From: Pseudogymnoascus verrucosus
Taxonomy: Eukaryota
Reading direction: 5' to 3' (one strand)
DNA length: 64,000 bases
Assembly (NCBI GenBank): GCA_001662655.1
Contig: KV460262.1
Part shown: one piece after another, positions 34,985-53,762 of the stretch
Position numbering within the stretch: the stretch's first letter is position 1
Layout of the letters: every line of letters starts with the position of its first letter
Notes under the pieces: model-generated
Database searches by the model: none
The model's input: only the letters and a program-made list of their open reading frames with translations
Told to the model about the DNA's origin: nothing
Position numbers and translations under genes: made by a program

Positions 34985-35188
34985 GTTGGGGTCGTGAAAG
35001 GAAATCTAATGATAAAATTGGTTGGTTTGGGTTTCGGCATCATTTAGGGGAACATGCTCTTATATATTAGAATTTACAATTCTAAGTTAGTGTCATCGAA
35101 ATAAAACATCTAATTTGTCCCATGACACAAAAATATGAAAAGTTTCAATATATTCACGAATTTATAATCAATTGAATTCAAAGCCCCC

Positions 35189-35972
35189 TCACGCCTTAGT
35201 ATTCAACATAACCCTCCCCACCTCCTTCCCCTTCATTCCCAAAACACGCACCCCTTTCCCCTCTAACTCCTTCTTCTTCTCCCCCCACTTCTCCGGCTCA
35301 ACAGCTCTCGTCCCCTCCTCCACAATCACCACCTTAAACCCCTCTTTCACCGCATCCTCCGCTGTAGCAGCGACGCAGTAGTCCGCTGCTAGGCCGACTA
35401 CATATACATCCGTCACCCCTTTCTCCTTCAATAAAGCTGAGAGCCCGCTATCCCCGACGCGTGGGGAGGAGAGAGGGGGATAGAAGGCAGAGTACATTTC
35501 GACTGATGCCATTTGGCCTTTTTCCACGATCCTATCCACCTTCGACAGATCCAGATCTTTCACCAGTTCCGCGCCTGGACTACCCTGTACGCAATGATCT
35601 GGCCATAACCGACTTTCATATTTCTCAGACGGGTTCTGGGGGTTGGTAATCGTCGCGAAACTGGTAAAAGCCTCCTTCCCCGGGTGTGAAGATGCGAAAC
35701 TGATGTGGCCAGCAGGATGCCAATCCTTTGTAGCGATCTTGAGGACAAAGGGGTAGGCGAGGAGGGTGTTGAGGGTGGTGAGGATAGAGCGCCCTTGGGG
35801 AACTGCTAAGGCGCCGGACTGTGGGGGGTGGGGGGTTAGTGGGGTGGTGGATGGTGGGGAAGTGGGACACAGGGAAGAAGGGAAAGTGGGGAGGGGAAAG
35901 GCGTACGGGTGGACAGAAGTCTTCTTGGAAATCTACTATTATGAGTGCCGGTTCGAATGCTGGTTCCGCCAT
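35189..35972 (-). CDS. PNC1: Nicotinamidase/pyrazinamidase (isochorismatase family); exons 35972-35907, 35818-35189
   Basis: ALIIVDFQEDFCPP|SGALAV, TKDWHP.GHISF, LWPDHCVQGSPGA, YSAF and VVGLAADYCV. Confidence 0.93.
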
Positions 35973-36291
35973 TATCGTGTTGTTGTTATTGTTGTTGATA
36001 GACGGCGGGGTATTTGGCGGGGTAAAGGGTGGTAACGCGTGAGCCTGCTGACGGATGCGATGGATGTGTGGGTTGGCAGGGTGGTCTAGATGCTGGATTG
36101 GGTGGGATTAATAGGAGATTGTATTATTATATTTTTTGAAGGGTGGAGGAGGATGGGGTTTATAGTTTTAAATAGGTGGAATGAAATGGGTGGTGTGACA
36201 TAAACGTCACTCTCCGGAACCTATGCTTCCCATTCTCACCCCAGGTAGCAGATTTGGATGGTATATATGCTCCCCCCACAGAAGAATTGTT

Positions 36292-36352
36292 ACATACGAC
36301 CATAGACTCAAGAGAATTGGACATCCCGTCCGCTCTGCCATACACAAGCTTG
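36292..36352 (+). pseudogene. 5S rRNA 5' half (nt 1-61), interrupted after CAAGCTTG
   Basis: Matches the intact copy at 43856 except for one transition and stops abruptly at 36352. TATA lies about 30 bp upstream. Confidence 0.93.
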
Positions 36353-37010
36353 TAATCCACTTGCTTATTACTCTCAATCGTGCCAATAGGCATAACGTGA
36401 GATCTCAGCCCCGTGCTGCCTTAAGGGGTGAAGCGAGGGTAATCAGGGTTTGCCGAGGGGTGATCACGCTGACCAGGGTGACCACGGTGAGCGGGGTGAG
36501 GCGACGCAACGTTTTCGTGTCAATTTCGTGTCAGTCCCGCATCAATTTCGTAACAGTACTAGAGTGTGGGCGTTTTAGCGGAAGCAGCTTCGTAGGGCAG
36601 GAATTGAGGCACGAAGGAAGAGCGCCTCCGGAAGAAGAGTGTAAGAGCTCTTCTTCGGGCTGGCCTCCCAATTCCTCCGAAATTTGAGGAGCCAATTCCT
36701 GACCTAGAAGCCCCCGAAATTGAGGGCGAGTGCGAGAGCCAGTGCGAGAGCGAGGGTGGGGGCGAAGGTGGGAGTGAGGGTGGGAGTGAGAGTGGGAGAG
36801 GAAGTGATAATTTCGTAGAGTAGGAAAATTATGTACCTTTACATACAAATTACTATGGACAGGTACTTACGGTCGCAATTTTCAGTTGCTGCATATTGCC
36901 TGCCCGGGGCCCCGAGTTGACGCACATTGCTTGTTCCAACCTTTCGCTTCGCTCAAGGTTGGTTACGACGATTAGTTTATACTCTTCTATTAACTTAGCT
37001 TCTTATAGTT

Positions 37011-37040
37011 TGACTACTAGCAAATACCTACTATTGTATG
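37011..37040 (+). pseudogene. Degenerate 5S rRNA 3' fragment
   Basis: TGACTACTAGCAAATACCTACTATTGTATG aligns to 5S TGACCACCAGCGAATACCCACTGTTGTATG with only C>T/G>A changes, followed by a T-run. Confidence 0.8.
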
Positions 37041-37675
37041 GTTTTTGTTTGACGCTTTTATTATTTTTGGCTTTTGGATTATCAATCGTGGCGATGAGGC
37101 GCAATAAGGGCCTGTTTGAAGCATAGTAACGCCAAGGTCGCGAGTTCGACCCTCGTAGTGACCAATATTTTTAATATTTTGCTGGTTGTGCTGGCGAGAA
37201 GGGCGGATTCATTTTTTTTTGCCAGTGGTGGTGATGTAGAGGGACAAGCGACTACAGGGGGATGGTGAGTGGGTGGGCGAGCATAGGGGGAGGAGGATTC
37301 GCGTGATTGTTCCAACACCTCCACTCCTGTAGCTGGCCTAATTTAACAACCATCTTGACGTTTCATCCCACCTTCCCTACTTGCTGGATGGAGAATAGTC
37401 TAGATAAGGTGATTCGCACCTCACTGTCCAAAGAGCACCCGCATTTTGCCTAGCTAGGGTCAATCGTTCTGTTGTACATTCGTTCACTACACCTCTAAAC
37501 TTAGGACACGGTGCATAGCACGCATATCCTCTGTGGTATGATTCGTCAGCCTCTGGAGGAACTCTGTTGGTTTTTGTCTATCATAGTCTCTTTGGTGTGT
37601 CAGGCATCACCACCTGCCACCACCGGCGCTTAAATCAATCACTAGGTAATGGAGATAGATAATCACCCCGATGGA

Positions 37676-37677
<2 letters not shown>

Positions 37678-37712
<35 letters not shown>
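37678..37712. repeat. Compound microsatellite (CT)n(GT)n
   Basis: Seen directly. A (TTTTG)n run also occurs at ~37797-37820. Confidence 0.9.
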
Positions 37713-37714
<2 letters not shown>

Positions 37715-37908
37715 TGCAGAATTTGCCGCTCTGTGTATATCTCTCTAGCCTCTCGTGCTTCCAAACACTACTAATATTGCTAGACCCTGCTTTGCATTTT
37801 GTTTTGTTTTGTTTTGTTTGCCCTCGGTACAGAAATCGTCCTTAGTTAGCCTCGAGATTTGAGAAGATTAGCGATCATTTTGACTAGGCGTCGACCTATG
37901 CAGCCATC

Positions 37909-40900
37909 ATGGAGGATCCACGAGAATTCATTGAGGGGATTGCAAGAAGCAAAGGTTCATTCACCGAATCGTTTAGACAGCAAGCAGATGAGGAGGCAAG
38001 ACAAGGACGCAGAGGAATGCTGCAAGCCATCCAGGGCGCTGAAGAAATCCGGGAGGATCTTTCGAAGGCGCTAAACATGTACTAGATCAATTTCCTTGCC
38101 CGATTCGAACTTCTCATAGTGTAGTGCTAACGTGTTTGCTAGCATATCCGCCGATTTATACACGAGCAGAGCTCGATTCCTCATGGAAGTCATACAAAAT
38201 GCAGATGACAATCAGTATCTTGCGTCATCTACACCAACACTCTGTATCAATGTTACTCGTCGACTTGTCAAGATCGAGTGTAATGAAACAGGATTCACCG
38301 AGGCAAACGTCCAAGCTCTGTGCCGGACAGGACGGAGCTCCAAGCCTCCCGGCCAAGGCTACACAGGAGAGAAAGGTATCGGCTTCAAGTCGGTATTTAA
38401 GATTGCTAAAAGAGCACATGTACGCTCTCCGCCCTACTATTTCCAGCTAGATAGGGCTAGGATGCTCGGGATGATTACTCCTCAATGGGACGAAGAATAT
38501 TTTGCAGCCCATTCGCAGGATTACCAGACTACAATCATTCTGGATCGAATCTGCGATGCTTCGACGAATTTTGCTGCTGCTCTAGAACTCGATATAGAGG
38601 CAATCCACCCTATGGTTATATTATTTCTCCGCCGGTTAGAGAGGCTGCAAATCACCCTACACCCATCTGCCTCCTTGCAAAATGAAGCCAGAATGTCAAG
38701 ACGTTTTCGCCGCTACACCAATGATGCTTTATTCCCAGGAATCACGACTCTCGAGAACGAGGATACTGGGACAAAGGAGCATTTCTATAAGGTACAATAC
38801 ACGTCCGCTTTTAATGGAACAGAGGAACGTCGACCAAACTTGACTCAGACTGATATAGTGCTGGCTTTCCCTGTAGAGCTAGTCTCTAATACATGGACAC
38901 CTAGACCGAAGCAGTTACACACATATGCATATCTTCCTCTTGGAAAATTTGGCTTTCAAGTAAGACCCACGGCGTAGGGAACCAAAACGTGCTTGCTTAA
39001 TTTGATATCAGTTTATTGTACAAGCAGATTTTGTCACTACATCAAACCGCCAATCTGTAGACGAAGACAGTCCTTGGAATACTAATATTGCTAGAGCCAT
39101 CCCGCAAGCGTTTGTCGATGCAGTTGCTGCTTTTAACAGGGTATTCCCCGACTCGGCGCAGTCAGCACAGCTGTCAAAGACTTGGCTAGTGTTCCTTGGA
39201 GTTACTTCCGCTGAGCCAAGTGAGTACTGGCGGAACATACGCAGAGGTATTGTGAAACGTCTAAAGAGACGTGAGGTCATCCAAACTCGATCTGGGAGCT
39301 ATGCATCCCCGCCATCGTTAATGTTCTTGAGCTGGGCAAAGGACCGCGATGGAGAGCCCATATTTGGTTCGAACAACGGTTATGTCTCCTCGGCGTACCC
39401 GGCCTCTGTGCATGGAATCCTTGGCATTCTAGGAGTCGGCACCCCTGACTCGGAGTGGATTTCCACGGAGCTCCAAGATTTACAGCGTAGCGGCTCTCTT
39501 CATGACAGGAGTCGATCATCAGCATGGTACTCTGACCTTGCAAAAGTGATCCTCACACCAGGAAAATCCGCACGCCATCCTACATATAAATATGAGCTGC
39601 GCAAAATACCACTCATACCTCTTGTAGATGGTCTGTGGAGTGTTGCTCCCACAGTGTCTACTCCAATTTACTTCCCTCAGAGTCTAGGAGCAAGGATTCC
39701 GTCCGGATTGCCACTACTTTTGGTCGACGAGGCGGCATGCAAATGTAAACATCGGACAAAGCTGTTTGAGTTGCTGGGCGTGAAGTACTGCGATGCCAGC
39801 AATATTGTGAAGGAAATCGTTGGCTACCATACAAGATTTACAAGAGCCAACCATTCCGATATCGTGGGTCATGCCAAGTATCTTTATCATGCTAAAGATC
39901 AGTTAATAGGGAATGACCTGAAGAAAATATATTTTGCAATCGCTGAAAAAGGTTCGTTCCTCAAAGGATCCGACTTATATACAGATAGTCCGCCCTCAAC
40001 AGAACTTTCCGAGCTATTTTCTGGGTATGGGGATGCTCGGTTTCTTCATCCTGATTACTTCCAAGACCTTCATGCTATAGAGAAGAGGCAGTTCATAGAT
40101 TGGCTGAAATCCGAGGCGGACATTGCTACAGTGCCACGCCTAACAACGCAGTACGATGGGCTGCACGATGATTTCCGCTGGATTTTGGAGAACAGAAGTG
40201 ATCGCGTATTAGATATCATACGCCGACATTGGGATGTCTATAGTTCTAAATTCACAAGCCAGATACAACGACAGTTTGCGCACCGCACCTTCCTCTGCCA
40301 AACCGGAAACCTAGTTCCCTTGCGCCAGAGCTTTATACCCCTCCCCGGTTTAGTGCAAAAGAGTCATGAATTGTGCGGTTCCGATTCCTGCTCTTTCTTA
40401 GTCTTATCCGGTTGTCTGCCAAGAGACTGGAGATTTCTTTCAACGTTTGATGTAGGGACAGAAGATAACCTTGACTTTTACCTGTGGATTCTGGAGCAAC
40501 CCGGATTTAAGGTGAATCCTAGTGTTGAGAGAGCGAAGAGGCTCTATTCTGAGATACAGTCACGAGCAGGATCTAATGCAGAGAAAGTGAGCGTGAGGTG
40601 AGGATGTTAACCCCTCGCACTAACCAATGTCAATATGGCAGTTTGGATTCCCGACCACTGACTTATATAAATAGAAATTCATTCTGCAAAAATGTCATCG
40701 CCTTACCAGATAATACTTTTGTCTCTGCAGGGAACTGCGTTTACTACGCGCCTCGAGGCTTCCAAGCTAAGCCATCTCTATTGGCGATATATGGGAACGA
40801 CCTATCTAATCTGTTCCAAAACATCCTATACATAAAGTTTGCCTCTCATACTGAGGCTCTTGAATATCTTTATCTGATTAGGTCCAACGTATCTACAACG

Positions 40901-43719
40901 ATGCAAGCTGTATCGAGTGTGTACGAATACCTTCAAGTTTTTTGTCCAGCAATGTGAGCAATCGTTAGACTATTAGACTACTACATTACTAACATGCTGT
41001 AGAACAATCGATCCGAGGAATCGTATTATTGCTATACCATCTGAAACAGGATCGCTTGAGTGGAAGATGCCGTCTGAGTGCGTGTGGGATGACTCGGAAT
41101 TCTCTCAAAACGAGCTACAACTTCGAAGCAAAATTGCGATGGAACAGATTATTAAGCAACATGCTCCCGCTGCTGCATCATTCTTCACTGCGATTATCAA
41201 GCTCCCAAACGCGGGAATCGATGAGCTACTTAGTGATCTCAGATTACTGCAGCAAGATGGAAGTGACGATTCGGCAACTGTATTCCGGCTGTACGAGAGA
41301 ATCGAGGTGTATCGTCGCAGCTCGGTAGAAAAGATTAAGTGCGTTCCATAAGACTGACTCTGAAAGGTTTTCACTAACATAATTGCAGAGACGCTTTTCA
41401 AACTAAGCCCCTAGTGTTTCTTCGGGGGTATAATGGTAATCGTGGCCGCTGGCTAAAGCTCGAGGATTGTGTCTGGAGCCGGACGATTCTTCGCACTAAG
41501 TATGCCTTAATGAGCACACTTAACCAATATCGGAGTCTATTCCGAGATACTTTAGATGTGCCGAACGTGACACTGAAGATGTTGGTTCAGGGGTTCATCA
41601 GCACCAGTGATACACCTTGGGAATATAGCAAAGACTTGCTACTTGACATAAGTCGCAAAAGAGAGACAAATAATGAATTAAGGCTATTGCAAGGGGTGAA
41701 GTGCTGGCCCTGTCGTTTGCCAACTGGCGAACCAGCGTTCTGTGCAGTTGGAGATTTCTTCGTTAACGACCGGCAAAACCTCTTTGAAATTTTCAAAGAC
41801 TCTCAAACTTTCTTAGATCTCGATTTTGATGATTCTCGAAGGGTTACAGACCTACTTCATAAGCTGGGTTGCGTTTCGTTTCTTTCGGAGCAAGTCAAAG
41901 TGAATACAGAAGCTCATCTGCCGCTTCAGAGTGACCATGAGATGTCACAAAACTACCAAAGACGTGCTGATGCTCTAAATAGGTATGTTACCCTATTTCA
42001 ACCTAGTGGTGGAATCAGATTACTATCAACTGAAGATCGATTAACGGTAGCACAGGTACTTCGAGCACTACAAGTGCCGTTCTAAGTATTTCCTAAAGCC
42101 CTTGTTGGAGACCGTGAAGGTGTGGATAAGTCCGAACATCGAAACTCATTACCACCTAGCACGCGGATTGTCTCCGCAGATATTTACTGTAACGAGGGTC
42201 GAGGGAGGCTCTTCCGTACGAGTCAACGACACAAGCGATGACGCGAAGCCTGTTCTAGAGATCTATCTCTCTTCGGAACAAAAGAAGCGCGATTGTGCAT
42301 TAGTGACCGACTTTCCGAAACAGCTCCTAGAAGCGCTTAAGGTTCGACCTTTTAATGCTGCAACAGAGCTTCATCAATATCTAGAGGTCCCATTGGAGTC
42401 GCTGAATATGCTGCTGGTTAGGAAAGGCATCATAGGAGAAATCCTGTCTTCATCTGCTAGCTCAGACACTTCTGAGAGTGATGAGATGAGTGATGATGAG
42501 GATCAATTGCAGTGGCGTGGACTGGTTGCCCCTTTGGCAACCCCTGAGCGACGCTCCGGTGTGACGCCTTTTGCAACACCATTGACTGAGTTGTCGAGAC
42601 CCTCAGCAGTGGTAACTGGGCAATCTGTCCCATCTACACAATCGCCTCGGAATCCGGAGTTTATTTCCAGGATATTAGCAGTTGAAACTTCGTTCCGCAA
42701 TCCCTTCTCACGGAGTGGCTTCCTAATACCTCCCGAGAGACCAGAAGAAGCGCCACCTACGGAGCCAGTTACCACTGCAGGTATATATAGCACAAGCAAT
42801 CGTAGTCGAAATACAGATAGACTCCGGCAATTCGCTCAACATTCGCGCACCGGCCTAAATGCTTCAAGAAGTGGAACCAGCAGCGCCGTCAACACCCCAA
42901 TTGCGGCAGCATTCGATATGACAGAATTAGGATCAGCTCTCGAGGATTCTCGGGCTTCGGTAGTTCCCGCCACCCTGGTGTCCGTTTGGAGTGCTAGGCG
43001 CCCACAAGCAAGGCTTATCCCAGATCGCAATCAAGAAGATAGGGCTCGGGATTTTGAAATCGGTTTCCTAGGAGAGCACTATGTAAGTGATCCTGTAACC
43101 TCTCCGATCGGACGGGTGGATTGACTGACTTGGCATCTAGGTGTTCACGGTTCTACGTGACCAGCTCAGGCTGCCCAATTTCAGTGGCCAGGTCCATTGG
43201 ACGAGCTCATTGCGGTCTCGTGCCGGATTCAGCACCTGCCGCGACGGCCCCTCCGACTTTACCTACCCAGACACGGAGGGAGCTCTTACCCGTTACCTCC
43301 AACAAATGCTGTTTCCATACACGAAACCAACTTGGCTTGACACAGTCCTCAGCGACGGCAACAAGCCAACGTATCTCCTCGAAGTGAAAAGTACGCCATC
43401 TCGAAACCCCACGACTCGCTTCTTTATGAGTGGACATCAGCACGCTTTGGTATGTCTAATATAAACGCTCGCCTTACTTTACAAACGAGGATAACATGGA
43501 ATTAATTGCTTACACTCACGCTAGGCAAAGCGCTTACAGGTAACGTCCACTCGACCGACGCAGATATATGTAATAGTTCGCATCTCAGGTCTAGACGCTC
43601 TAGAAGATGGTGCGACTCATAAACCGCAGTGGAGGGTGTACCTCGACCCGTATAGTCTCGGCGAACAAGGCGTCTTGGGCTTCTACGCGCCTACTTATAC
43701 CGTGACCGCTGTTAGTTGA
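37909..43719 (+). CDS. Large sacsin/NO VEIN-like protein: N-terminal GHKL (HATPase) domain and C-terminal DUF3883-like PD-(D/E)XK nuclease fold; ~9 exons
   Basis: RFLMEVIQNADDN, NETGF, GEKGIGFKSVF and FAYLP-like YAYLP..FIVQADF..SNRQ. C-terminal GFLGEHYVF..SDFTYPD..YLLEVKST..FFMS..Q. Approximate exons: 37909-38078, 38143-38959, 39012-~40590, ~40675-40953, ~41002-41338, ~41389-41982, ~42056-43082, 43141-43449, 43525-43719. Confidence 0.85.
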
Positions 43720-43855
43720 GTGCGGAGAAAGGGAGGCCGATGTAATGTACGCAGCATCAGTTAAATACAAGGAGATTCCGAGAAGGCCCTACTAGCATTT
43801 TATAGTTGCAAGTAGTCTACTACAGGATATGTTCTACATATGAGGTGTATTTACC

Positions 43856-43974
43856 ACATACGACCATAGACTCAAGAGAATTGGGCATCCCGTCCGCTCT
43901 GCCATACACAAGCTTGAGATCGGTGGATTAGTAGTTGGGTGGGTGACCACCAGCGAATACCCACTGTTGTATGT
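43856..43974 (+). rRNA. Intact 5S rRNA gene (119 nt)
   Basis: ACATACGACCATAG...CTGTTGTATGT with complementary termini (helix I), ascomycete-type CATCCCGTCCGCTCTGCC and box C-region GGATTAGTAGTTGGGTGGGTGACC, followed by T-runs (Pol III terminator). Confidence 0.97.
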
Positions 43975-44453
43975 TTCTTTTGCCTCATTATTTATTTTTT
44001 TGTTGCTTGTGTGGATAGTTGTCAATGGGTCAGCTCAGGTTAGGGGGATGCTCGGGTCGCCTACGTTCTATATCTAAGGCCCGAGGCTCATAACGGATAT
44101 CCATCGGTATCCCCAACTAGTCACTTACCCGAATAAGTCCAACACTTTGTCTACCGATTCCTCCTGCACGACAAGACCACTTCTCCAGATCATGCTTGGC
44201 ATTGAGCTTAACAGGTCTCAGGAGGTGCGGCATCTACCCCGCATCTACCCCACAACTTCAGCCCGCCAGCAAGGGTTGGGGAATGGAAATGGTTATCCCA
44301 CTTCGAAGTGGGATAACCATTTCCTGTAGAGCCTAATACTCGAGTATATAAAGAGCGACATCCCACTATGATGATTCTAGCCTCGTTATCAGAATTTAGA
44401 TCGCTTCTTTTGTTACAGGTTACTGGGTGAAGCTTGGTGGACTTTTTGCAGAT

Positions 44454-46153
44454 ATGTCGGCCTTAAATGCTGTGGAAGATAAAGCCGGGGAGGAAATTTT
44501 CAAAAATGACGATGGCGAGAAGAAGGATGGGTATAGGGTTGCGGAGGAGGATGTCTCTCTTGAGCAGAGACAGATGGAGGCGAGAATCATGTGAGTCCTT
44601 ACTTTCTTCACTCTCAGATATCAAGAGCACCGCTAAAGTTCACGCAGGCGCAAGGTTGACTGGCGTCTAATCCCCATCCTCGGCATCCTCTACTCAGTAT
44701 CAGGTCTCGACCGCGTCAATGTACTTTCCCTCTCTCTCTCTCTCCCTAACCTCCCAACCCCTCCCACTCAGCCCACATCACTAACAACCCACAGATCTCC
44801 AACGCCCGCGTGGCCGGCATGGACAAAGACCTCCATTTTAATATCGGCAACCGCTACAGCATCGCGCTCCTGGTCTTCTTCATCACCTACCTGCTCTTCG
44901 AGATGCCGTCCACGCTCATCATGCGCTACATCGGCCCGCGGGTGCAGCTGTCTGCTCTCGCTATGAGCTTCGGCGCCGTCATGCTTGGGATGGGGTTTGC
45001 GAATGATTGGCGTGTTATTGTGGTTTGTCGGATGCTGATTGGAATGTTTGAGGCAGGGTTTTTGCCTTGTTGCATGTACCTCCTCTCGTGCTGGTATATG
45101 CGCTATGAGGTGCAAAAACGCATGGCGATGTGGTATGTCGTCAACTTGTTCGTGTCGGCCTTTGGCAATATCCTTGCCTATGGAATTGTGAAACTAGATG
45201 GCGCGCACGGAATTGCGGGCTGGAGATGGATCTTCATCATTGAGGGAGCTCTAACAATCGGCGTTGCGATCATCGGATACTTCATCGTCCTCAACTTCCC
45301 CGACAGCATCCTCGCCTCAGGCAAGAATGGATACTTCACCCAAGCCGAGCTGGAGGTTGTCATGGATCGCGTAGAGCGTGACCGAGGCGACAGTTTACCC
45401 GATAAGTTGACGAAGGAGAAGTTCTTCAGGCATATCTCCTCGTGGCAGCTTTGGGTCTATGGCTTCATGTTTCTTTGCTGCTCGGCTCCGATTTATGCTT
45501 TTGCGTATTTTATTCAGACGATTTTGAAGACGATGGGGTATTCGACTGCAGTCGTGTTACTGTTGTGCGCGCCGCCCTATCTGTTCAGTGCGATTTGGAC
45601 TGTTGCTGTTGCGTGGGCAGCGGACAAGACGAAGCTTCGGATGCCGTACATGGTCCTGAACGCGGTCATCACGCTCGTGGGGCTGCTGTTGACAGCATAT
45701 TGCAAGGTGAGTCCCCATTCCGATTTGCTTTGCATCGACTAACAGAACAGAACAACGGCGTTCGCTACTTTGGCATCTTCCTTGGAGTATCAGGCTGCAA
45801 CGGAAATCTCCCCACAATCATCGCGTTTCAGAGCAATAACGTTCGATCTGACAGCCGCCGCTCAGTTGGTTCCGGTATTCAATTCGCATTCGCCGCCATC
45901 GGGGGGATCTACGCTTCATGCACGTTCATACAGAAGGAAGGTATGAATTCACTATCTGATATGATGTAAAACTTGGATCTGACCTGATATAGCTCCTTCA
46001 TACCCTACCGGAATATGGTGCGCCGTAGCCACCCAGTTTCTCCTCGCGATTTTGGTTGGAGTGATGACTCTGCACTTCAAACGTGTGAACAAGAAGGCTG
46101 ATGAAGAGGGATTTGTCCTCCAGGAGGATGTCCATTTTAGACACACATATTGA
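44454..46153 (+). CDS. MFS transporter, allantoate/nicotinate permease (Dal5/Tna1-like ACS family); exons 44454-44590, 44648-44720, 44795-45706, 45751-45940, 45992-46153
   Basis: RKVDWRLIP..LDRVNISNARVAGM, EMPS, RMLIGMFEAGFLP, LSCWY, GIAGWRWIFIIEG, APPY and C-terminal FRHTY. Confidence 0.92.
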
Positions 46154-46972
46154 GCCGGTCCTCAAGCTTAGTGCGATGTGTCTCTATTATACCATCCTAT
46201 AATAACTCTCAAAATGTTTCCACTTCAAGGCTGCCAATAGGCGTAGAATGGAGAATTGTAGCCAATATTGAAAGGAGTAGGTGGATACAGCCAGTCGGTT
46301 AGGTGATGGATTTGCGGTCTCGGTTGAAATATCCAAGGTTGGTACGGTTGGTGCGCGGCTTCCCACCGTCTCAGTAAGAGTAACTTGTCTGTGTACCCTT
46401 TGCAGCAAGAAAACTAATATCTCCGTTAGCAGCACTATGCACAGTGTTAAGTCTCGCGTACTTTTGGAATACCTCCCCCACGTCCATGTGCTTGACTTTA
46501 GTGGCACTAGAGAGAGAACGTTGTTTAACTTAACTTAATGCATTCTGTTCTTTGGATGTTTTCTGCTTAAAGTAGCCTCGCGACTGTACTAGAACAGCTT
46601 GTCCTTCTTTAGAGAGTGTTTTCTGTCCTATAGTACTAAGAAAGTCCTTAAAAGTGAATGAAGAATGTTATAGATGGTAGACTGCAAAATGTAGACATTA
46701 GGGGAGCGTATCTTTTATACAATTTTCTAGCTCACCCTCGCTCACCTTCGCTCACCTTCGCTCACCTAGGTACTAGATTATCCGTAGCCATCTAAAGGCA
46801 TAGTGCATTATGTTCATTACGTCTTAATACGAGATCCACTTCGTGCGTGTTAACGTGGCTGCCATTAGGTAGCTAAGGGGGACAACTAGATTATCGTAAG
46901 GCATCAAAAACTTAAGGGCGGTAACGCTTACCCACTAGTCTAAATGGCACCGTCCTGAGTATTAATCCACTT

Positions 46973-47038
46973 CAAGCTTGAGATCGGTAGATTAGTAGTT
47001 GGGTGGGTAACCACTAGCGAATACCCACTGTTGTATGT
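46973..47038 (+). pseudogene. 5S rRNA 3' half starting at CAAGCTTG
   Basis: Matches nt 54-119 of the intact copy with three transitions and a T-run terminator. The sequence upstream is not 5S. Confidence 0.93.
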
Positions 47039-47159
47039 TTTTGCCATTTTTTTTTAGCCTTTTCGGAGTATCATAGCTAAATACTAATTAACAGTTTTGA
47101 GTTTGAATATCCATTAGTGTGCATGCTTGCACTTATAGTCCAATAACCGAATCACTATC

Positions 47160-47220
47160 ACATACAACCATAGACTCACGAGAATTGGGCATCCCGTCCG
47201 CTCTGCCATACACAAGCTTG
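47160..47220 (+). pseudogene. Second 5S rRNA 5' half (nt 1-61), interrupted after CAAGCTTG
   Basis: Two mismatches to the intact copy and the same breakpoint as 36352. Confidence 0.93.
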
Positions 47221-47830
47221 TAATTCAGTGAATTGATGCTCTCAATCATGCTGATAGGCATAGCGTGGAATATGTGCCCCTTGCCGCCTTAAGGGGTGAA
47301 GCGAGGGTGAGCAGGGTGAGCTGAGGGGAGAGCAAGGTGAGCGGGGTGAGCAGGGTGAGCGAGGAGAGGCGACGTAACAGTTTCACGTCAAGTTCGCGTT
47401 AATTTCCGTAAATAAAGTCTCGCGCCCTCACTAAATTGAGGGGCCGCGTATCCACGGATCCACCTAATATACGTGGACAACTGTTCTTCACGCCCACTCA
47501 AAATTGGAGCGCTTTGAGAAACTCGATCCAGTCAAAGATAGCTCAGGTCATTCTCATTTATTATTGGCAATAAACGCCGTACAGCTGTGATTCTGGCCCC
47601 AAGAATCATGCAGACTAAGGCACATATTCTGACGTATTGGGTGTAGTTTCGTACAGTAGAGTAGCTGGGAGATGGACTCACACGGTGACGTAGCAAAGTG
47701 ACGTAGAAAATTGACATATCATATTTACTAAGCAAAGGCCACAGTATGATTATTAGAGAGATTTCTTCCATCTCGACCTTTGTTAACCTAATGTCGCCAA
47801 TTCTATTTTCTTCATCACCCTTCTAAATTC

Positions 47831-49784
47831 ATGCTTATAAGTTTAGCAACGAAACTAAACTTAATTACAAGGCCTAAGATTATCCCGTTTACATCAAAGG
47901 CCCTTTCTACATGCACCCTCTCATATATCTTGAAAATGCCGCCGAAAAAATCACCTGCTATTAACGGTAAACGCAAAGGCCCACCTTCAGCAGAATCAGC
48001 TCATAGTAACGAATCTCACAAAAAGCCAAAAGTCAACGATGACTCCATAAATCCTCTCTCAGCATCCCATCCCAAAGCACAAGAAGCGGAAAGAAATGGC
48101 ATCACACTTCGAGCATTTTATGGGCCCGAGATGTCCAATACGCATGCTCTCGCGTACAAGAATGGCCAAATTGCTAGACCAATCGAAGTTCTAAATTCTG
48201 CACTTTTCGAAACCAAGCCGAAGCGGGAGCAGATCGAAGTTAGCAACGCAGTGGTCCATTGGTTCAGGTGTGATTTGCGGATGCGAGATAACAGGTCTCT
48301 CTATGCTGCGAGTAAGAAGGCGAGGGAGAACGGCGTTCCCTTAATCACCATGTACATCGTTAGTCAGCAGGATTTCGAGGCACATCTGGTGTCGCCTGCT
48401 AGAGTGGATTTCATATTGCGGACGCTAAGGGTCTTAAGGGAAGATCTAGCAAAGCTTGATATTCCACTTTATGTAGAGACTCTAGAGAAGAGAAAGAAGA
48501 TTCCCGGGAGGATATTGGAGCTTGTAAAGGAATGGGGATCAGATCATTTATTTACTAATGCGGAGTATGAAGTCGATGAATTGAGAAGAGATGCAAGCCT
48601 AGTCAGAGAATGTCTAGAGATCGGGGTTGCAATGGACGTTCTGTCGGATACCTGTGTTGTGAAGCCTGGGGACCTAGTGAGTAAGTCCGGAACACAGTAT
48701 TCTGTGTACACTCCATGGTATCGTGCTTGGGTTGCATATATCCATGAGAATCCTCTGTTGCTCGATCTTTCTGAAGCACCTAACAAGAATCTCAATGGCG
48801 CAAGGCAAAAATACCTCAAGCTATTCGAGAGCACCATACCCAACGAAGTCGAGCATAAAAAGCTAAGTGACGAAGAAACAGAGAGGTTTTGCTCTATGTG
48901 GCCAGCAGGAGAGCATGACGCACACAGGCGCCTTATAAAATTTATAGACGAACGAATTGGAGGGTACAAAGCACACAGGAACAATCTTTCAGAACAATCA
49001 ACTTCGTCGCTTAGCGTCCACTTGGCTAGCGGCACCCTGAGTGCGAGAACAGCAGTTAGAATGGCGCGAGATCACAACCGTATCAAGAGGCTAGATGGTG
49101 GGGTTGAAGGTATTCTGACCTGGATCAGCGAGATTGCATGGCGAGACTTCTACAAGCATGTCTTAGCCCACTGGCCATATATCTGGTATGTGATTCTTAC
49201 GTTTTTAAGGCATGTGTCTAACGGTTCTTAGTATGAATAAGCCATTTAAACTGGAGTACACTAACATAGAATGGGAATACAATCAAGATCAATTTGAAGC
49301 CTGGTCCAAAGGTCGGACAGGATACCCAGTAGTTGACGCAGCAATGCGCCAACTGAACAGCTGTGGTTGGATGCACAATCGCGGCCGGATGATCGCGGCA
49401 TCCTTCCTAGCAAAGCATCTCCTTCTCGACTGGCGCATAGGTGAGAGGTATTTCATGGAGCACTTAATCGATGGAGATTTTGCCTCGAACAACGGGGGCT
49501 GGGGATTTAGTGCCTCGACAGGAGTTGATCCTCAGCCATATTTTAGAATCTTCAACCCCCTCTTGCAGAGCGAAAAATTCGACCCCGAAGGAGAATATAT
49601 CAAGAGATGGGTTCCCGAGCTAAGGGGTATCGCGGGCAAGGCAATTCATGATCCGTATGATAGGGGAAAGGGAGCTGAGGCGAAAAAGTGCGGGTACCCG
49701 GAGCGGATAGTGGATCACAAGGAGAGTAGGGACCGGTGTTTAGCTAGGTATAAAGAGGGCTTGGGACGAAAGAGCTACTCCTAA
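47831..49784 (+). CDS. PHR1: Class I CPD photolyase; exons 47831 (or 47936)-49185, 49232-49784
   Basis: VHWFRCDLRMRDN, NAEYEVDE, SVYTPW, TSSLSVHLASGTLSAR, EIAWRDFY, GRTGYPVVDAAMRQL..GWMHNRGRM, DGDFASNNGGW and YFRIFNP. 46-nt intron. Confidence 0.95.
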
Positions 49785-50005
49785 ATACTCCAGAGTGCTC
49801 CTTTAAGAAAATGATGTTTCATTGTTGCCCTTGCGCCTGATTTGCTAAGGGTCTGCTTTTATGACGAAGCCGTTGCGTCATCCACCTCCCTCCTCTAAAA
49901 AAGTGTCACATTCCGCAATTCACCTCCTACAAAACCCCCTCACACCTTCCCTTCAAAGGAACTCCCCCCTCGTGGAATCCTCTGTACATACACACACACA
50001 AAACA

Positions 50006-50140
50006 ATGGCAACTGAACTCCCCGTTCTCGGCGCCACTGCCAACAAAGGCGCTAATGGCTCCACCACCGACTCCTTCACCGTAAAGACCAGCCCGGCCCG
50101 TATGTTGCAGGGTAGCGTCATTATGGACGTCGTCGACGCA
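50006..50140 (+). pseudogene. PDX1: 5' fragment of pyridoxal-5'-phosphate synthase subunit Pdx1/Snz1
   Basis: MATELPV..DSFTVKTSPARMLQGSVIMDVVDA versus the canonical [24 protein letters not shown]. Truncated after about 45 codons. Confidence 0.8.
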
Positions 50141-50142
50141 GC

Positions 50143-50370
50143 TCTACTATTATGAGAGCTGGTTTGAAGGCGGGGTCGTTACTCATTGTGGTGGTGGTGG
50201 TGGTGATGTTGTTGTTGATAGCTGGCGGGGTTTTTGGTGGGGTAAAGGGTGGTAACGCGCGGTGAGACTGCTGATGGATGCGATGGATGTGTGGGGTTTA
50301 TAGTTTTCAATAGGTGTAATTAAATGGGTGGTGTGATATGAACGTTACTCTGCGGAATTTATCTTGCTCC
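50143..50370 (-). pseudogene. Diverged duplicate of the PNC1 first codons and promoter
   Basis: ATG at 50186 gives MSNDPAFKPALIIV versus MAEPAFEPALIIV. 50187-50370 aligns to 35973-36230 (GGGGTAAAGGGTGGTAACGCG, GATGCGATGGATGTGTGGG, AAATGGGTGGTGTGA) with an internal deletion. Confidence 0.85.
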
Positions 50371-51117: not shown

Positions 51118-53325
51118 ATGGAGCTGTCTAGAAGCGAAAAAGATGCCACGGTTTACGACACAAAACCTCATCTTTTATCAGTCGAAGAGAACGATGACCA
51201 GTGGATTCACCGCCCTCCGCTTCATGTTCCGTTAGATGGGGGAGCGCTACCTTCGTTAGATTCGAGTGCAACCAGCTATCGCTTTGAGCGATATATATTT
51301 CGGGCTGTTCTCAACGCTCTTGGCCCCATCATCGTTACGCTGTTCTACTTTCTTATTCTAAGGTATTATCTGTGGGAGCCCGCTGAGAATGGTATCATCC
51401 CCTCTCGCCCTGTGAATTCTAGGGGCGTTTTCTTTGCCTGGCTCATTCTCAGTATTTTCGTCCTCGACTGGGCAAAGTCTGGCCTCGCCGGGTTTGAGGC
51501 GGCGGCTCTTATGAAACCAGAATATGCACCGTTAGACGGTCGCAAGTTCATGTGGCATATCGACCGCGGCTGGGGCTCTTTAAGCAGTTGGTGGCAGGTT
51601 TTGCTCCTCACGTTTCGATATGTCTACAAGAAGATGCGTGCTGGCAAGGAACCGGTGGAGTGGGAAGGGCCCGGGCTACTCTGGTTCTACCTGGCTTTTT
51701 GCAGCTTTTTGTTCTACGCGGTTGTGCCACTCTCTGGGCTATCCATGGAGCCTACGGAGGCCCTGCAACTGGCCAAACGTGCCATTGCGATCTCGGGCAC
51801 CAACCAGACTACGTTCCAAATGCAGCCGTCGAATGCTGTCGCTGATTTGGCCAGTTATAGCTGGCGACAAGGTCGTCCGACAACCCCGGAAGGAGCTACT
51901 ATTCTTTACGCTCCCGATGGTACCCCAGATGTCAGCAGTACATTTTACGAAGATATGATCCAGTCGGACTATCAGAGTCGCCTGCTGGATAACTCTGGCA
52001 GTCTCAACAGTACGATCACTTTCTTCTCCGGTCCCGAAGTTAGTGAACGAGCGCATGGCAGGGCATGGGGAATGCTGACAAGTATTTCCTGTATGCCTGT
52101 CCATCCCTATAGGGACCTCGAGCTTCTCAGTGTCACGGCTATTAATAAATGGAGTAGTCCTGTTTGGACTACGACATCCAAGGACTATGTTAATGGAACT
52201 TCTGGGCCTTACGCCGCGAGCGGATTCGAACCCGTGCATTTTGCGGAGGGGACAGGTCTAGGCTTGAAGTACCAATATCTGATGGCGAGCAATCTGGGCA
52301 TATTTGCCGGCCTCGCCAGGTATGACAACGAGACCCGCCTGCCCGTTCTAGGTGCGATAGAATTGGTTATGTGGCAGGCATTCGACACGATAGTTGGCTA
52401 TATACCCGACGAGACATTCAAAAACATGTCATCTCACCCCCTAGTTGAGTCTTCCTTCTCAAGCCGAGATAACAAGACATACCTAGGCTACGGTGTTCGC
52501 TGCTCTGTGAACTCAACAGTCGGCGCAGCCACTATCTCAGCAGTGACAAATACCTTTACAGACTTCAAGACCCAAGTAGCTAGTCTGAAGGCTACTCGTG
52601 TTGGAGCGCAAATCACCACAACCTCAGGAGTAATGGGACTACAATCCCTGGTCTTCTCCGCATTCACATCAGTCCTCCTCGGCTACCAAGGCTTCCCCAA
52701 ATGCTCCTCCTTCTCCGTCTTCTGCACCGGCCCCATCGGCGCCAACCTAGCCACCAACGGAATCCCCTCTTTCGCACCAATCCAAAAATCCCCCCCCGGC
52801 TCCGAAAGCGAATACACCGGCGGGCTGATGCAGTACCCCTCCATCTCGCCCGAGCGCATGAACCTAGCAATGTACAAGCTCTTCGGCGAGCTCTCCATGG
52901 GCGTCATGTCCACCGGCCCTGGCAACTGGACGTCCACCCCCAACGCGACGTCGGATCTAGGCCTTGTCGGCCTCGAGCCCGCACACGACATCGAGCAGGG
53001 CCGTGTGCCGTATAGGGTGGTGCTCGTGCTCCTCCTTCTGTGGGCTGTCGTCACTGTTCTTCCGCAGCTGCTGCTGCCGGGGTTACTGGTTGAGCGCCGC
53101 TGGGGCGAAAAACTGGATGGCTTTACGATGTTTAGGTTTGGTGCTGAGTGGCGAGATAGCGTGCATAGTTTGCGGTCGAGGGAGCTGGGTGGACCGGGCG
53201 CGGCGGCTTTGGGCGAGATTCCGGGGATGATTGGGGATATGAGGGCTGGGGAGATGGAGACGGGGTTTGTGGGGTTGAGTAGGGAGAAGGCGAAGTTGAG
53301 GAGGGTGTATAGCTATGCTAGGTAG
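51118..53325 (+). CDS. Hypothetical membrane glycoprotein (~735 aa; 3 N-terminal TM helices, large luminal region, 1 C-terminal TM helix)
   Basis: Long intact ORF with hydrophobic segments, N-glycosylation sequons and C-terminal LDGFTMFRFGA. Confidence 0.8.
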   Translation: MELSRSEKDATVYDTKPHLLSVEENDDQWIHRPPLHVPLDGGALPSLDSSATSYRFERYIFRAVLNALGPIIVTLFYFLILRYYLWEPAENGIIPSRPVNSRGVFFAWLILSIFVLDWAKSGLAGFEAAALMKPEYAPLDGRKFMWHIDRGWGSLSSWWQVLLLTFRYVYKKMRAGKEPVEWEGPGLLWFYLAFCSFLFYAVVPLSGLSMEPTEALQLAKRAIAISGTNQTTFQMQPSNAVADLASYSWRQGRPTTPEGATILYAPDGTPDVSSTFYEDMIQSDYQSRLLDNSGSLNSTITFFSGPEVSERAHGRAWGMLTSISCMPVHPYRDLELLSVTAINKWSSPVWTTTSKDYVNGTSGPYAASGFEPVHFAEGTGLGLKYQYLMASNLGIFAGLARYDNETRLPVLGAIELVMWQAFDTIVGYIPDETFKNMSSHPLVESSFSSRDNKTYLGYGVRCSVNSTVGAATISAVTNTFTDFKTQVASLKATRVGAQITTTSGVMGLQSLVFSAFTSVLLGYQGFPKCSSFSVFCTGPIGANLATNGIPSFAPIQKSPPGSESEYTGGLMQYPSISPERMNLAMYKLFGELSMGVMSTGPGNWTSTPNATSDLGLVGLEPAHDIEQGRVPYRVVLVLLLLWAVVTVLPQLLLPGLLVERRWGEKLDGFTMFRFGAEWRDSVHSLRSRELGGPGAAALGEIPGMIGDMRAGEMETGFVGLSREKAKLRRVYSYAR

Positions 53326-53480
53326 AGGGGTTGATATATGGAAGATATTAATGGTATATAATCCAATTGCTAGAGCCGTCGGGTGTCAATACTACCGAAG
53401 TATAGGAACGGGTTCACAAGAACCAGTCTCTTACTCGGACTGAAGACAGTTCGGTCTAACAGATCACATCCTCCCTTTCC

Positions 53481-53530
53481 TAGTAGGTAGGTAGGTAGGT
53501 GACTACTAGCAAATACCTACTGTTGTATGT
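53481..53530 (+). pseudogene. Degenerate 5S rRNA 3' fragment
   Basis: GTAGGTAGGTGACTACTAGCAAATACCTACTGTTGTATGT plus a T-run. Aligns to 5S nt ~75-119 mostly by transitions. Confidence 0.82.
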
Positions 53531-53762
53531 TTTTATCTTATGGCGAAATGCAAATAAATAACTATGTTCTACGGTTTATTTATATTCTAGCCTATTTCGA
53601 ACGAAGATACCGATATAGCTATGATATAGAGCTATTTCCATCCCTCCAAAAGCAGAACCTCAGCCATGCATTCCAGCTATAATCCTCATAACCTAGCGCC
53701 CCAGCAACACCAGCAACACCAGCAATTAAAACTCCCACCCATCATATATACCCCCCAAACCC

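What the first reader, a model, noticed from the sequence alone, without database searches (positions are those of the whole stretch)
36292..47410. Site-specific, cargo-carrying element family that splits 5S rRNA genes at CAAGCTTG (Starship-like but with no recombinase here)
Seen: two 5S 5' halves (36292-36352, 47160-47220) break at the identical nucleotide. Each is followed by a homologous but clearly diverged ~200-bp left end (shared CTCTCAATC..ATAGGCATA.CGTG and GCCTTAAGGGGTGAAGCGAGGGT). A 3' half resumes at 46973, giving the 8-bp direct repeat CAAGCTTG. Known: some fungal Starship giant transposons, mobilised by DUF3435 tyrosine recombinase captains, insert into 5S rDNA with short direct repeats. 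Inference: these are two independent insertions of a small non-autonomous relative. Element A (~10.6 kb) carries an HATPase-nuclease gene, a 5S copy and an MFS transporter, and would be mobilised in trans.
Basis: partly seen in the sequence, partly recalled or inferred. Interest (0 to 1): 0.9.

Follow-up and report, generated by a model that had tools for sequence, protein, structure and literature searches.

The report
Mobile element family splitting 5S genes
A family of DNA insertions in a Pseudogymnoascus fungus cuts 5S ribosomal RNA genes at the same eight letters and carries ordinary genes along, much like the known giant Starship transposons, but here it is small, many-copied and has no recombinase of its own.

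Summary
Two 5S 5' halves (36292-36352, 47160-47220) stop at the same base. Each runs into a ~180-250 bp left end, and the two left ends are about 76-80% alike. A 5S 3' half resumes at 46973, which duplicates the palindrome CAAGCTTG.

New here:
- Element A (36353-46972) starts and ends with the same 10-mer, TAATCCACTT.
- Both ends carry GGTGAGC-type arrays in opposite orientation.
- A third copy with the same breakpoint but different cargo lies in another public record (L001).
- In four related genomes both ends lie on several distinct contigs, while A's interior lies on one.
- In the two most distant genomes, 36.5-50.14 kb is about 99% identical while both flanks are 90-94%.

That shared block runs past A's right end, through the second left end and a photolyase, to a truncated PDX1 gene. 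So A alone is not shown to be the moving unit.

No recombinase, transposase or terminal inverted repeat was found. No empty site could be tested.

Best reading (0.5): a 5S-specific, cargo-carrying DNA element family that integrates by site-specific recombination, with A a captain-less member. Starship membership is untested, because the defining captain is absent. I rate it a new variant of a known kind.

The parts
35932..36224 (-). X: 5' end and promoter of the PNC1-like isochorismatase gene, the native left flank.
   Evidence: Isochorismatase Pfam hit on 35189-35932(-). A diverged copy lies at 50143-50362. X19 lays on 35184-36194 with 70 other letters in 1011.
36292..36352 (+). 5S rRNA gene 5' half (positions 1-61), ending in CAAGCTTG.
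   Evidence: One difference from the full copy.
36353..36580 (+). Left end of element A. It starts TAATCCACTT and holds CTCTCAATC, ATAGGCATA, a GGGTGACCA array (36458-36499) and TTTCGTGTCAA repeats (36513-36551).
   Evidence: Alignments to B and L001. TRF. 8, 8, 11 and 9 contigs at place 36413 in four genomes.
37011..37045 (+). Degenerate 5S 3' tail inside A, followed by 5S-type downstream sequence.
   Evidence: It is 94% identical to 53500-53534.
37909..43716 (+). Cargo: intact Sacsin/NO VEIN-like gene of 8 exons, about 1770 aa.
   Evidence: tblastn of P0001/P0002/P0003 and of P0088 (aligned 37909-43716). Pfam SACS. Homologues.
43856..43975 (+). Cargo: full-length 5S rRNA gene that still holds the CAAGCTTG target.
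   Evidence: Rfam RF00001, 74.2 bits.
44454..46150 (+). Cargo: MFS transporter gene.
   Evidence: Pfam MFS_1, 8e-29. tblastn span of P0092.
46714..46972 (+). Right end of element A. It holds GCTCACCTTC x3.8 (46730-46767, the complement of the left-end array) and ends in TAATCCACTT.
   Evidence: Joints 43981>46714 in four genomes and several contigs at 46554.
46973..47039 (+). 5S 3' half (positions 54-120), beginning with CAAGCTTG.
47040..47159 (+). 120-bp spacer between the two broken 5S genes, made of 5S-type downstream and upstream flank.
47160..47220 (+). Second 5S 5' half (positions 1-61).
47221..47473 (+). Left end B. It starts TAATTCAGTG and holds a GGGTGAGCA x6.9 array (47294-47360). 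No matching right end lies in the window.
   Evidence: 14, 13, 23 and 11 contigs at place 47253.
47792..49784 (+). DNA photolyase gene, inside the block shared at about 99%.
   Evidence: Pfam DNA_photolyase 2e-39 and FAD_binding_7 3e-76. table 8.
50006..50143 (+). First ~45 codons of a PDX1/SNZ-type gene, cut off at 50143. This is the right edge of the shared block.
   Evidence: all 10 PDB hits are PDX1/SNZ1 N-termini, best E = 0.036. records 7 and 30.
50143..50362 (+). X': diverged duplicate (78-89%) of the PNC1 5' end and promoter.
51118..53325 (+). 735-aa gene with no Pfam family and a patchy distribution. It is not a recombinase.
53487..53534 (+). Degenerate 5S 3' tail (about positions 73-120) before the UDG-family gene.

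Best explanation
The window holds members of a 5S-rDNA-specific, cargo-carrying DNA element family in the genus Pseudogymnoascus.

Proposed mechanism: an element integrates by conservative site-specific recombination within the 8-bp palindrome CAAGCTTG (5S positions 54-61). The core then appears at both junctions and the 5S gene is split.

Element A (36353-46972, 10.6 kb) is a complete member that lacks a recombinase. It has a left end, a right end, a 10-bp terminal direct repeat and opposed subterminal GGTGAGC arrays, which could be protein-binding sites. Its cargo is a Sacsin/NO VEIN-like gene, its own intact 5S gene and an MFS transporter.

The second copy is a left end only, sitting in a neighbouring 5S gene. 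What follows it (photolyase, a PDX1 stump) has since been rearranged.

The recombinase would be supplied in trans, most plausibly by a Starship-type tyrosine recombinase encoded elsewhere in the genome.

The composite from 36.4 to 50.14 kb has recently spread between diverged Pseudogymnoascus lineages.

Shown: the anatomy, the recurrence of the breakpoint, ends on several contigs against a single-contig interior, and the identity contrast.

Inferred: the recombination mechanism, the kind of enzyme, mobilisation in trans, and which unit actually moved.
For: 1. Exact, complementary break. 5S positions 1-61 and 54-120 overlap by CAAGCTTG. This 8-mer occurs only in 5S sequence in the window.

2. 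Terminal signature. TAATCCACTT occurs exactly twice, at the two tips of A.

3. Opposed subterminal arrays. 10 of the 19 GGTGAGC matches in 64 kb lie in the three ends: + strand in both left ends, - strand in the right end (9.55 expected; 0 of 100 shuffles reach 19). They form arrays of period 9-10. The inverted local alignment of the ends scores 28, reached by 3 of 300 shuffles.

4. Third copy. L001 has 5S 1-61, the same break, and a left end about 80% alike over ~270 nt. It then carries unrelated cargo: a methyltransferase fragment, a DDE transposase, LysM genes and a GH18 chitinase.

5. Other genomes (X2, X3, X19, X4 in that order throughout).
- 8, 8, 11 and 9 contigs cover place 36413.
- 14, 13, 23 and 11 contigs cover place 47253.
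- 4, 2, 6 and 6 contigs cover place 46554.
- A's interior lies on single contigs.
- 4, 5, 8 and 5 contigs follow a 5S gene to position 61 (43916) and then run on unlike. Three of the four consensus strings hold TCTCAATC.

6. Independent insertion. A versus B: 5S half 58 of 61 identical, left end 141 of 186 identical (Fisher p = 6e-4).

7. Head-to-tail junctions. In X2, single contigs lie on the right end up to 46980 and go on in a B-type left end, with TAATTCAGTGACT between. A second contig joins 46966 to 47214 (table 5c). This is what tandem integration at a shared core would give.

8. Identity contrast (table 8).
- X19 flanks: 77 other letters in 1108, 70 in 1011, 25 in 438.
- X19 interior: 41 in 5806, 22 in 2202, 7 in 526, 7 in 491.
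- X4 flanks: 53 in 963, 50 in 602, 39 in 394.
- X4 interior: 70 in 6055, 12 in 1926, 31 in 2845.

9. Candidate enzymes exist in the genus. The Starship survey lists tyrosine recombinase genes in Pseudogymnoascus genomes. P. verrucosus has tyrCount 8 and elementCount 0 (supplement of PMC11162782).

10. 5S rDNA is a known, repeatedly evolved Starship target, with direct repeats of 6-16 bp (PMC11162782 passages).
Against: - No tyrosine recombinase or other transposase domain was found. I scanned 47 window ORFs of 100 aa or more (13 with an ATG start between 30 and 52 kb; 34 of the 69 stop-to-stop frames of 150 aa or more across the whole window), 83 of the 139 stop-to-stop ORFs of 50 aa or more in 36.2-53.7 kb, and the 10 kb behind the left end in L001, apart from a nested DDE element there.
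- There are no terminal inverted repeats. Beyond the 10-mer, direct similarity of the two ends is at chance level (21 of 300 shuffles).
- No empty site was seen. All 4 relatives laid hold A's interior, and no contig bridges a 5S half.
- The ~99% block does not end at A's right end. It runs on to 50143, which is an illegitimate junction: a PDX1 stump joined to a diverged copy of the PNC1 promoter. Transfer may therefore have been by homologous exchange of a chromosome segment rather than by the element.
- B has no right end. Two degenerate 5S tails (37011, 53487) are not explained by a simple insertion model.
- In X2, two contigs place the left-end body 32-36 letters behind a 5S 3' end rather than behind a 5' half (table 5c).
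- The first metagenome scan, for a 21-mer shared by A and B, found nothing. The second found one locus.
- In A. fumigatus a given Starship is present at most once per genome (preprint 10.1101/2024.06.28.601215, supplemental passage). Here the ends lie on many contigs.
Confidence: 0.5

Rival explanations
1. These are decayed remnants of ordinary full-size Starships (or similar elements) in a small 5S cluster that acted as an insertion hot spot. Captains and most cargo were lost by deletion and rearrangement. What remains no longer moves. The ~99% block spread between lineages by ordinary homologous exchange or introgression.
For: - B lacks a right end.
- There are stray 5S tails, a truncated PDX1 and a duplicated PNC1 promoter at 50143.
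- The shared block ignores A's right boundary.
- A. fumigatus has a 5S-rich Starship hot spot that includes a degraded element (passages of 10.1101/2024.06.28.601215).
- Exchange of genome fragments between Pseudogymnoascus lineages has been reported (PMC4438637 passages).
Against: - A has two clean tips with the same 10-mer, and an intact 8-exon cargo gene.
- Both ends lie on several distinct contigs in four genomes. That is more than a few decayed giants would be expected to leave.
- The exchanged fragments reported for the genus average 878 nt, against about 13.7 kb here.
Confidence: 0.2
2. There is no insertion at all. The unit '5S 5' half plus GGGTGAGC-rich sequence' is a truncated 5S pseudogene family. 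It arose by breakage or recombination at the palindromic CAAGCTTG and was then spread by duplication, ectopic recombination and gene conversion. This would match the 5S pseudogenes with an associated conserved sequence described for Aspergillus nidulans.
For: - The title of Borsuk et al. 1988 (seen only in a reference list) describes 5S pseudogenes with an associated sequence resembling an immunoglobulin switch region. The GGGTGAGC arrays here resemble that.
- Some left-end bodies follow a 5S 3' end rather than a 5' half (table 5c).
- The target is a palindrome.
Against: - A matching right end abuts the complementary 3' half with an exact 8-bp overlap and the same terminal 10-mer.
- The arrays at the two ends are in opposite orientation.
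- Cargo differs completely behind homologous left ends.
- The 5S halves are far better conserved than the adjoining ends. Gene conversion could produce that, though.
Confidence: 0.12
3. This is a cut-and-paste DNA transposon family of another class, whose transposase makes an 8-bp target duplication (as hAT elements do) and happens to prefer this 5S site, or a Crypton-type tyrosine-recombinase element. A and B would be non-autonomous copies.
For: - The duplication is 8 bp.
- There are subterminal repeat arrays at both ends.
- The ends lie on several contigs.
- There are no inverted terminal repeats, which fits Cryptons (recalled, not from a call).
Against: - There are no terminal inverted repeats, which hAT-type elements have (recalled).
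- No transposase or recombinase was found in A, B or L001 beyond a nested Tc1-like DDE gene.
- Strict use of one site in one orientation is not typical of such transposons.
- A carries 10 kb of intron-containing host-like genes.
Confidence: 0.08

Closest known systems
5S-rDNA-targeting Starships: Voyager in Macrophomina; the Enterprise-family Osiris navis in Aspergillus fumigatus; Starship-1_Anig in A. niger
   Same: - Insertion inside the 5S coding sequence with a long direct repeat taken from 5S.
- One orientation.
- Cargo of ordinary fungal genes.
- Fragmentation of the target 5S gene.
- Signs of transfer between species.

   Different: - No DUF3435 captain here.
- A is 10.6 kb, against a quoted range of about 20-700 kb and a smallest type element of 16,357 bp.
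- There are no inverted terminal repeats, whereas 18 of 20 A. fumigatus Starships have them.
- The ends lie on many contigs per genome, against at most one copy per genome.
- The target (5S 54-61) differs from Voyager's, which is 20 bp from the 5' start. It also differs from Starship-1_Anig's TSD ACATACAACAGAAGG, which is the complement of the 5S 3' end.
- Whether 54-61 is one of the five or more published 5S sites could not be checked. That information is in a figure, and the supplement held is cut.
Truncated 5S rRNA pseudogenes of Aspergillus nidulans with an associated conserved, immunoglobulin-switch-like sequence (Borsuk et al. 1988)
   Same: A 5' part of the 5S gene is followed by a conserved sequence rich in GAGC/GGGT-type short repeats. 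Content is recalled; only the title was seen, in a reference list.
   Different: The organism belongs to a different class of fungi. That work described pseudogenes, not element ends with a matching right end and cargo.
Bacterial integrative mobilizable elements and genomic islands in tRNA genes
   Same: - Site-specific integration in a conserved small RNA gene, with a short core repeated at both junctions.
- Members without their own enzymes that rely on a relative.
- Tandem accretion at a shared core.
These properties are established knowledge, recalled. The ICE analogy and tRNA targets are raised in PMC9156397.
   Different: This is a eukaryotic host. No integrase is identified. The element carries a whole replacement 5S gene rather than restoring the target's 3' end.
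Cryptons (tyrosine-recombinase DNA transposons of fungi)
   Same: No inverted terminal repeats, and short direct repeats at the junctions (recalled).
   Different: Cryptons encode their own recombinase and are a few kb long with no host cargo (recalled). None of this was tested beyond the absence of a recombinase here.

Membership tests
Starship | A DUF3435-type tyrosine recombinase 'captain' as the first gene at the element's 5' end. | tested here: not met
   No such Pfam hit in 47 window ORFs of 100 aa or more, in 83 of 139 ORFs of 50 aa or more in 36.2-53.7 kb, or in 26 of the 33 listed ORFs of L001.
Starship | Short direct repeats at both boundaries that reflect the target site. | tested here: met
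   CAAGCTTG at 36345-36352 and 46973-46980.
Starship | Presence/absence polymorphism with a resolvable empty site, or the same element at two loci. | tested here: inconclusive
   All 4 genomes laid hold A's interior. The k-mer contigs break in 5S, so no site could be bridged. No whole genome is held.
Starship | Large size (about 20-700 kb) with many cargo genes. | tested here: not met
   A is 10,620 bp and carries three genes plus 5S sequences. Size range taken.
Starship | Low copy number: a given element is present at most once per genome in A. fumigatus. | tested here: not met
   The left end lies on 8-23 distinct contigs and the right-end region on 2-6 per genome. Comparison figure.
Truncated 5S pseudogene family (A. 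nidulans type) | The 5' part of 5S followed by a conserved associated sequence with switch-region-like repeats. | tested here: inconclusive
   The architecture matches.
hAT-like DNA transposon | An 8-bp target duplication together with terminal inverted repeats and a hAT transposase. | tested here: not met
   The 8-bp repeat is present. No inverted repeat at the tips. No transposase.
5S-derived SINE | A 5S-derived head holding the whole internal promoter, a short body, a retroposon-type tail, and variable target duplications. | tested here: not met
   Only 5S positions 1-61 are present. Both halves have 5S-type upstream flanks (by eye). A holds intron-containing genes. The promoter layout is recalled.

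The most novel reading that the evidence does not exclude
A small, multi-copy, captain-less lineage of 5S-specific cargo elements, a 'MITE-like' offshoot of Starship-type elements. These elements carry their own replacement 5S gene next to the right end. They pick up host genes between their ends and are passed between Pseudogymnoascus species. Here they ferry a NO VEIN-like gene, an MFS transporter and, in the composite, a DNA photolyase.
Probability: 0.25. Interest if true: 0.8.

Novelty: new variant of a known kind. Interest (0 to 1): 0.6.

Why it matters
Starships are the only known eukaryotic elements that move host genes by site-specific recombination. So far they are described as giant, low-copy and autonomous.

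A family with the same life-style that is 10 kb or smaller, present on many contigs per genome and lacking its own enzyme would show that these systems also have parasitic or mobilisable derivatives, as bacterial islands do.

It would also give truncated 5S pseudogenes in filamentous fungi, reported as early as 1988 (title seen), a concrete origin as insertion scars.

It would supply the first element boundaries for Pseudogymnoascus. For P. verrucosus the published survey lists 8 Starship recombinase genes and no resolved element.

The ~13.7-kb block, which is about 99% identical between lineages whose flanks differ by 6-10%, is a candidate vehicle for the unexplained exchange of genome fragments reported in this genus.

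Tried and rejected
- Whole-genome searches: no genome is held for this window.
- Empty-site test with public runs: the contigs break in the 5S repeat, so nothing bridges 36352 to 46973.
- One search also shows no cover in X19 and X4 for about 50.7-53.3 kb (the 735-aa gene).
- Metagenome scan for the 21-mer shared by both left ends: 0 loci.
- The rest of contig RCNJ01000357.1 could not be searched for a captain.
- A tRNA-like string at 37136-37165 gives no tRNA by ARAGORN or Rfam.
- The 735-aa ORF as a hidden recombinase: no Pfam hit. Its Atlas neighbours are DUF3176/CLZ1_N-type fungal proteins. Rejected.
- Direct similarity between the left and right ends beyond the 10-mer is at chance level. 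I dropped a by-eye match of AGGCATA/CTTAAGGG motifs.
- RIP as the cause of left-end divergence: transitions to transversions are 29:26, 19:12 and 25:11, so the divergence is not RIP-dominated.
- Published direct repeats: CAAGCTTG and shorter forms were not found in the held, cut supplements of PMC11162782, PMC12153272 and PMC9156397.
- Rooney and Ward 2005 and Borsuk 1988 are not held.
- Searches for small captain-less Starship derivatives (4 papers, passages of one read) and for Starships in Pseudogymnoascus (1 paper, unrelated) found no description of such a family.

Full report
WHAT IS THERE

Rfam finds one complete 5S rRNA gene at 43856-43975. Using it as a probe, two copies of positions 1-61 lie at 36292-36352 and 47160-47220. 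One copy of positions 54-120 lies at 46973-47039. Degenerate 3' tails lie at 53487-53534 and 37011-37045.

Both 5' halves end in CAAGCTTG and the 3' half starts with it. That palindrome occurs four times in the window, always within 5S sequence. Behind each 5' half lies a homologous sequence, 81.7% alike over 240 nt including the 5S half.

ANATOMY OF THE ENDS

- The stretch between the two CAAGCTTG copies (36353-46972, 'A') begins and ends with TAATCCACTT. These are the only two exact matches in 64 kb.
- Ten of the window's 19 GGTGAGC matches sit in three short patches: + strand in both left ends and - strand in the right end (9.55 expected; no shuffle of 100 reaches 19).
- Tandem Repeats Finder reports them as arrays of period 9-10.
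- The best inverted local alignment of left against right end is this array (score 28; 3 of 300 shuffles reach it).
- There are no terminal inverted repeats. Beyond the 10-mer, the direct similarity of the two ends is at chance level.

So A has two different ends with opposed subterminal repeat arrays and a short terminal direct repeat. This is the layout of a DNA element whose ends are bound by a protein. It is not the layout of a retroposon.

CARGO, AND NO ENZYME

A carries:
- an intact eight-exon gene for a protein of about 1770 aa, Sacsin/NO VEIN-like (37909-43716)
- the full 5S gene
- an MFS transporter

Behind the second left end lie:
- a DNA photolyase
- the first ~45 codons of a PDX1/SNZ-type gene, cut off at 50143 (weak E-values, but all 10 hits are PDX1/SNZ1 N-termini at the right position)
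- a 78-89% copy of the PNC1 promoter and first codons (50143-50362 against 35932-36224)
- a 735-aa gene of no Pfam family
- a 5S tail

No tyrosine recombinase or other transposase domain was found. I scanned 47 window ORFs of 100 aa or more (13 ATG-started ORFs between 30 and 52 kb, and 34 of the 69 stop-to-stop frames of 150 aa or more across the window) and 83 of the 139 ORFs of 50 aa or more in 36.2-53.7 kb. The rest of the window looks like ordinary chromosome: a Cu-ATPase, CSN7, Msb1, a mitochondrial carrier, UDG, a PNC1-like gene, UDPGP and STI1.

The names attached to the best protein hits place the window in Pseudogymnoascus.

OTHER COPIES

A pattern made of the 5S junction plus the conserved TCTCAATC motif found one further locus in the metagenome collection (L001). 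It has 5S 1-61, the same break, and a left end starting TAATTCAGTGG that is about 80% alike to both window copies over ~270 nt. Then comes quite different DNA: a methyltransferase fragment, a Tc1-like DDE gene, LysM genes and a GH18 chitinase. No recombinase lies in its 10 kb.

Contigs of four related genomes were laid on 34001-54000. Counts below are in the order X2, X3, X19, X4.
- Place 36413 (A-type left end): 8, 8, 11 and 9 distinct contigs.
- Place 47253 (B-type left end): 14, 13, 23 and 11 contigs.
- Place 46554 (towards the right end): 4, 2, 6 and 6 contigs.
- A's interior lies on single contigs.
- 4, 5, 8 and 5 contigs follow a 5S gene exactly to position 61 and then run on unlike. The consensus strings are noisy, and three of the four hold TCTCAATC.
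- In X2, single contigs lie on the right end through CAAGCTTG and continue in a left end (table 5c). This is a head-to-tail junction, as tandem integration at a shared core would give.
- In all four genomes one contig joins a 5S 3' end directly to 46714, the start of the conserved right end. A short form with a 5S gene next to the right end therefore seems to exist.

I saw these only as table rows, not as sequences.

Against a simple picture, two X2 contigs place the left-end body 32-36 letters behind a 5S 3' end rather than behind a 5' half.

INDEPENDENT INSERTIONS

Between A and B the 5S halves differ at 3 of 61 positions, while the next 186 aligned positions differ at 45 (Fisher p = 6e-4). 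The differences are not transition-dominated.

Diverged elements entering conserved 5S genes explain this. Duplication of a pseudogene unit does not, unless gene conversion keeps the 5S parts alike.

THE IDENTITY CONTRAST

Other letters per laid letters, table 8:

| Run | Flanks | Interior |
|---|---|---|
| X19 | 77/1108, 70/1011 (left); 25/438 (right) | 12/659, 41/5806, 22/2202, 7/526, 7/491 |
| X4 | 53/963, 50/602, 39/394 | 70/6055, 12/1926, 31/2845 |
| X3 | 54/2191 (left) | 25/6055 |

- For X19 the interior pieces run from 36507 to 50143.
- X2 is nearly identical throughout.
- The depth of the interior contigs equals that of the flank contigs, so they are single-copy parts of those genomes.

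A stretch of about 13.7 kb is therefore about 99% identical between lineages whose neighbouring genes differ by 6-10%. That means recent transfer or introgression.

The block starts at or near A's left junction, between 36194 and 36507. It does not stop at A's right end. It runs on through the 5S 3' half, the spacer, the second 5' half, left end B and the photolyase.

It ends exactly at 50143. There the X19 and X4 contigs go on for 765 and 1048 more letters that do not lie on the window. In the window, the PDX1 stump meets the duplicated PNC1 promoter at that point.

So the unit that spread is the composite, and in this lineage its right side has been cut by an illegitimate junction. Whether it sits between PNC1 and UDG in X19 and X4 is unknown.

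MECHANISM

Three features fit conservative site-specific recombination at a core, as tyrosine recombinases do (established knowledge):
- one 8-bp sequence is shared by target and both junctions
- one orientation is seen in the three copies I could read
- head-to-tail junctions share a single core

A target duplication made by a transposase cannot be excluded.

The enzyme must act in trans, since none lies in A, B or L001. The Starship survey lists many tyrosine recombinase genes in Pseudogymnoascus genomes, with 8 in P. verrucosus and no resolved element (supplement of PMC11162782).

The element's own 5S gene may compensate for the copy it destroys. This is inference.

One lead: the terminal TAATCCAC is the reverse complement of 5S positions 68-75, six bases beyond the core (pair I7). 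I have not tested whether that is more than chance.

COMPARISON WITH WHAT IS KNOWN

[quoted passage not shown] Their direct repeats are 6-16 bp, and at least five different 5S sites are used (PMC11162782, passages and section 23).
- Voyager inserts 20 bp from the 5' start (PMC9156397).
- Starship-1_Anig has the TSD ACATACAACAGAAGG at the 5S 3' end (supplement table S14).
- The Osiris navis fragments 5S genes in A. fumigatus.

The present family works like these. It fails the defining test, since there is no captain. It also differs in four ways: size, absence of inverted repeats, the many contigs that carry its ends, and a target site unlike the two whose position I could read.

The title of Borsuk et al. 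1988 (seen in a reference list) shows that 5S pseudogenes with a conserved, switch-region-like associated sequence were noted long ago in A. nidulans. From recall, those are 5' halves. If they are homologous, such 'pseudogenes' are element junctions.

Leushkin et al. 2015 reported exchange of small fragments (mean 878 nt) between Pseudogymnoascus lineages and suggested a vector (PMC4438637 passages).

NOVELTY AND LIMITS

My searches found no description of Starships in Pseudogymnoascus or of small captain-less Starship derivatives. I read only listings and a few passages, and the supplements are cut.

I rate this a new variant of a known kind.

Mobility of A itself, the enzyme, and the route of transfer remain unshown. 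The supplements I could not see in full (the DR tables of PMC11162782 and PMC12153272) may already list this 5S site.

Noticed in passing
window 44285-44324: A perfect 40-nt palindrome (two 20-nt arms with no spacer) lies between the cargo 5S gene and the MFS gene. By eye, each arm ends in a string like the element's terminal motif, with one extra C.
   Followed up: no
window 50006-50362: A PDX1/SNZ-type gene is cut off after about 45 codons and joined at 50143 to a 78-89% copy of the PNC1 5' end and promoter (35932-36224). This is an illegitimate junction, and it marks the right edge of the block shared at about 99%.
   Followed up: partly
window 51118-53325: This 735-aa gene has no Pfam family and a patchy distribution. 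Identity is 100%, 88%, 84% and 74% within the genus, 71% to a protein named from Uncinocarpus reesii (a different class), and 40-57% in Xylariales, lichen fungi and black yeasts. Its Atlas neighbours are DUF3176/CLZ1_N-type clusters.
   Followed up: partly
window 46963-46970 and 43923-43930: The element's terminal TAATCCAC is the reverse complement of 5S positions 68-75 (GTGGATTA), six bases beyond the CAAGCTTG core (pair I7). It may be a shared binding site or it may be chance.
   Followed up: no
window 37136-37165: A tRNA-like T-arm and ACCA-like string sits just behind the internal 5S tail. The contigs of X2 and X3 break here. ARAGORN and Rfam report no tRNA.
   Followed up: partly
window 36513-36551, 47385-47410; L001 230-262: A second conserved repeat in all three left ends, TTTCGTGTCAA-like units, lies behind the GGGTGAGC array.
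   Followed up: no
window 27423-28007 and 53763-55034: There are two genes of the uracil-DNA glycosylase superfamily 26 kb apart, on opposite strands, on either side of the insertion cluster.
   Followed up: no
L001 1937-3307 and 4860-10118: Behind the third left end lie a Tc1/pogo-like DDE transposase ORF, two LysM genes and a GH18 chitinase with chitin-binding domains. GH18 and LysM are also listed as cargo of an A. fumigatus Starship (table).
   Followed up: no
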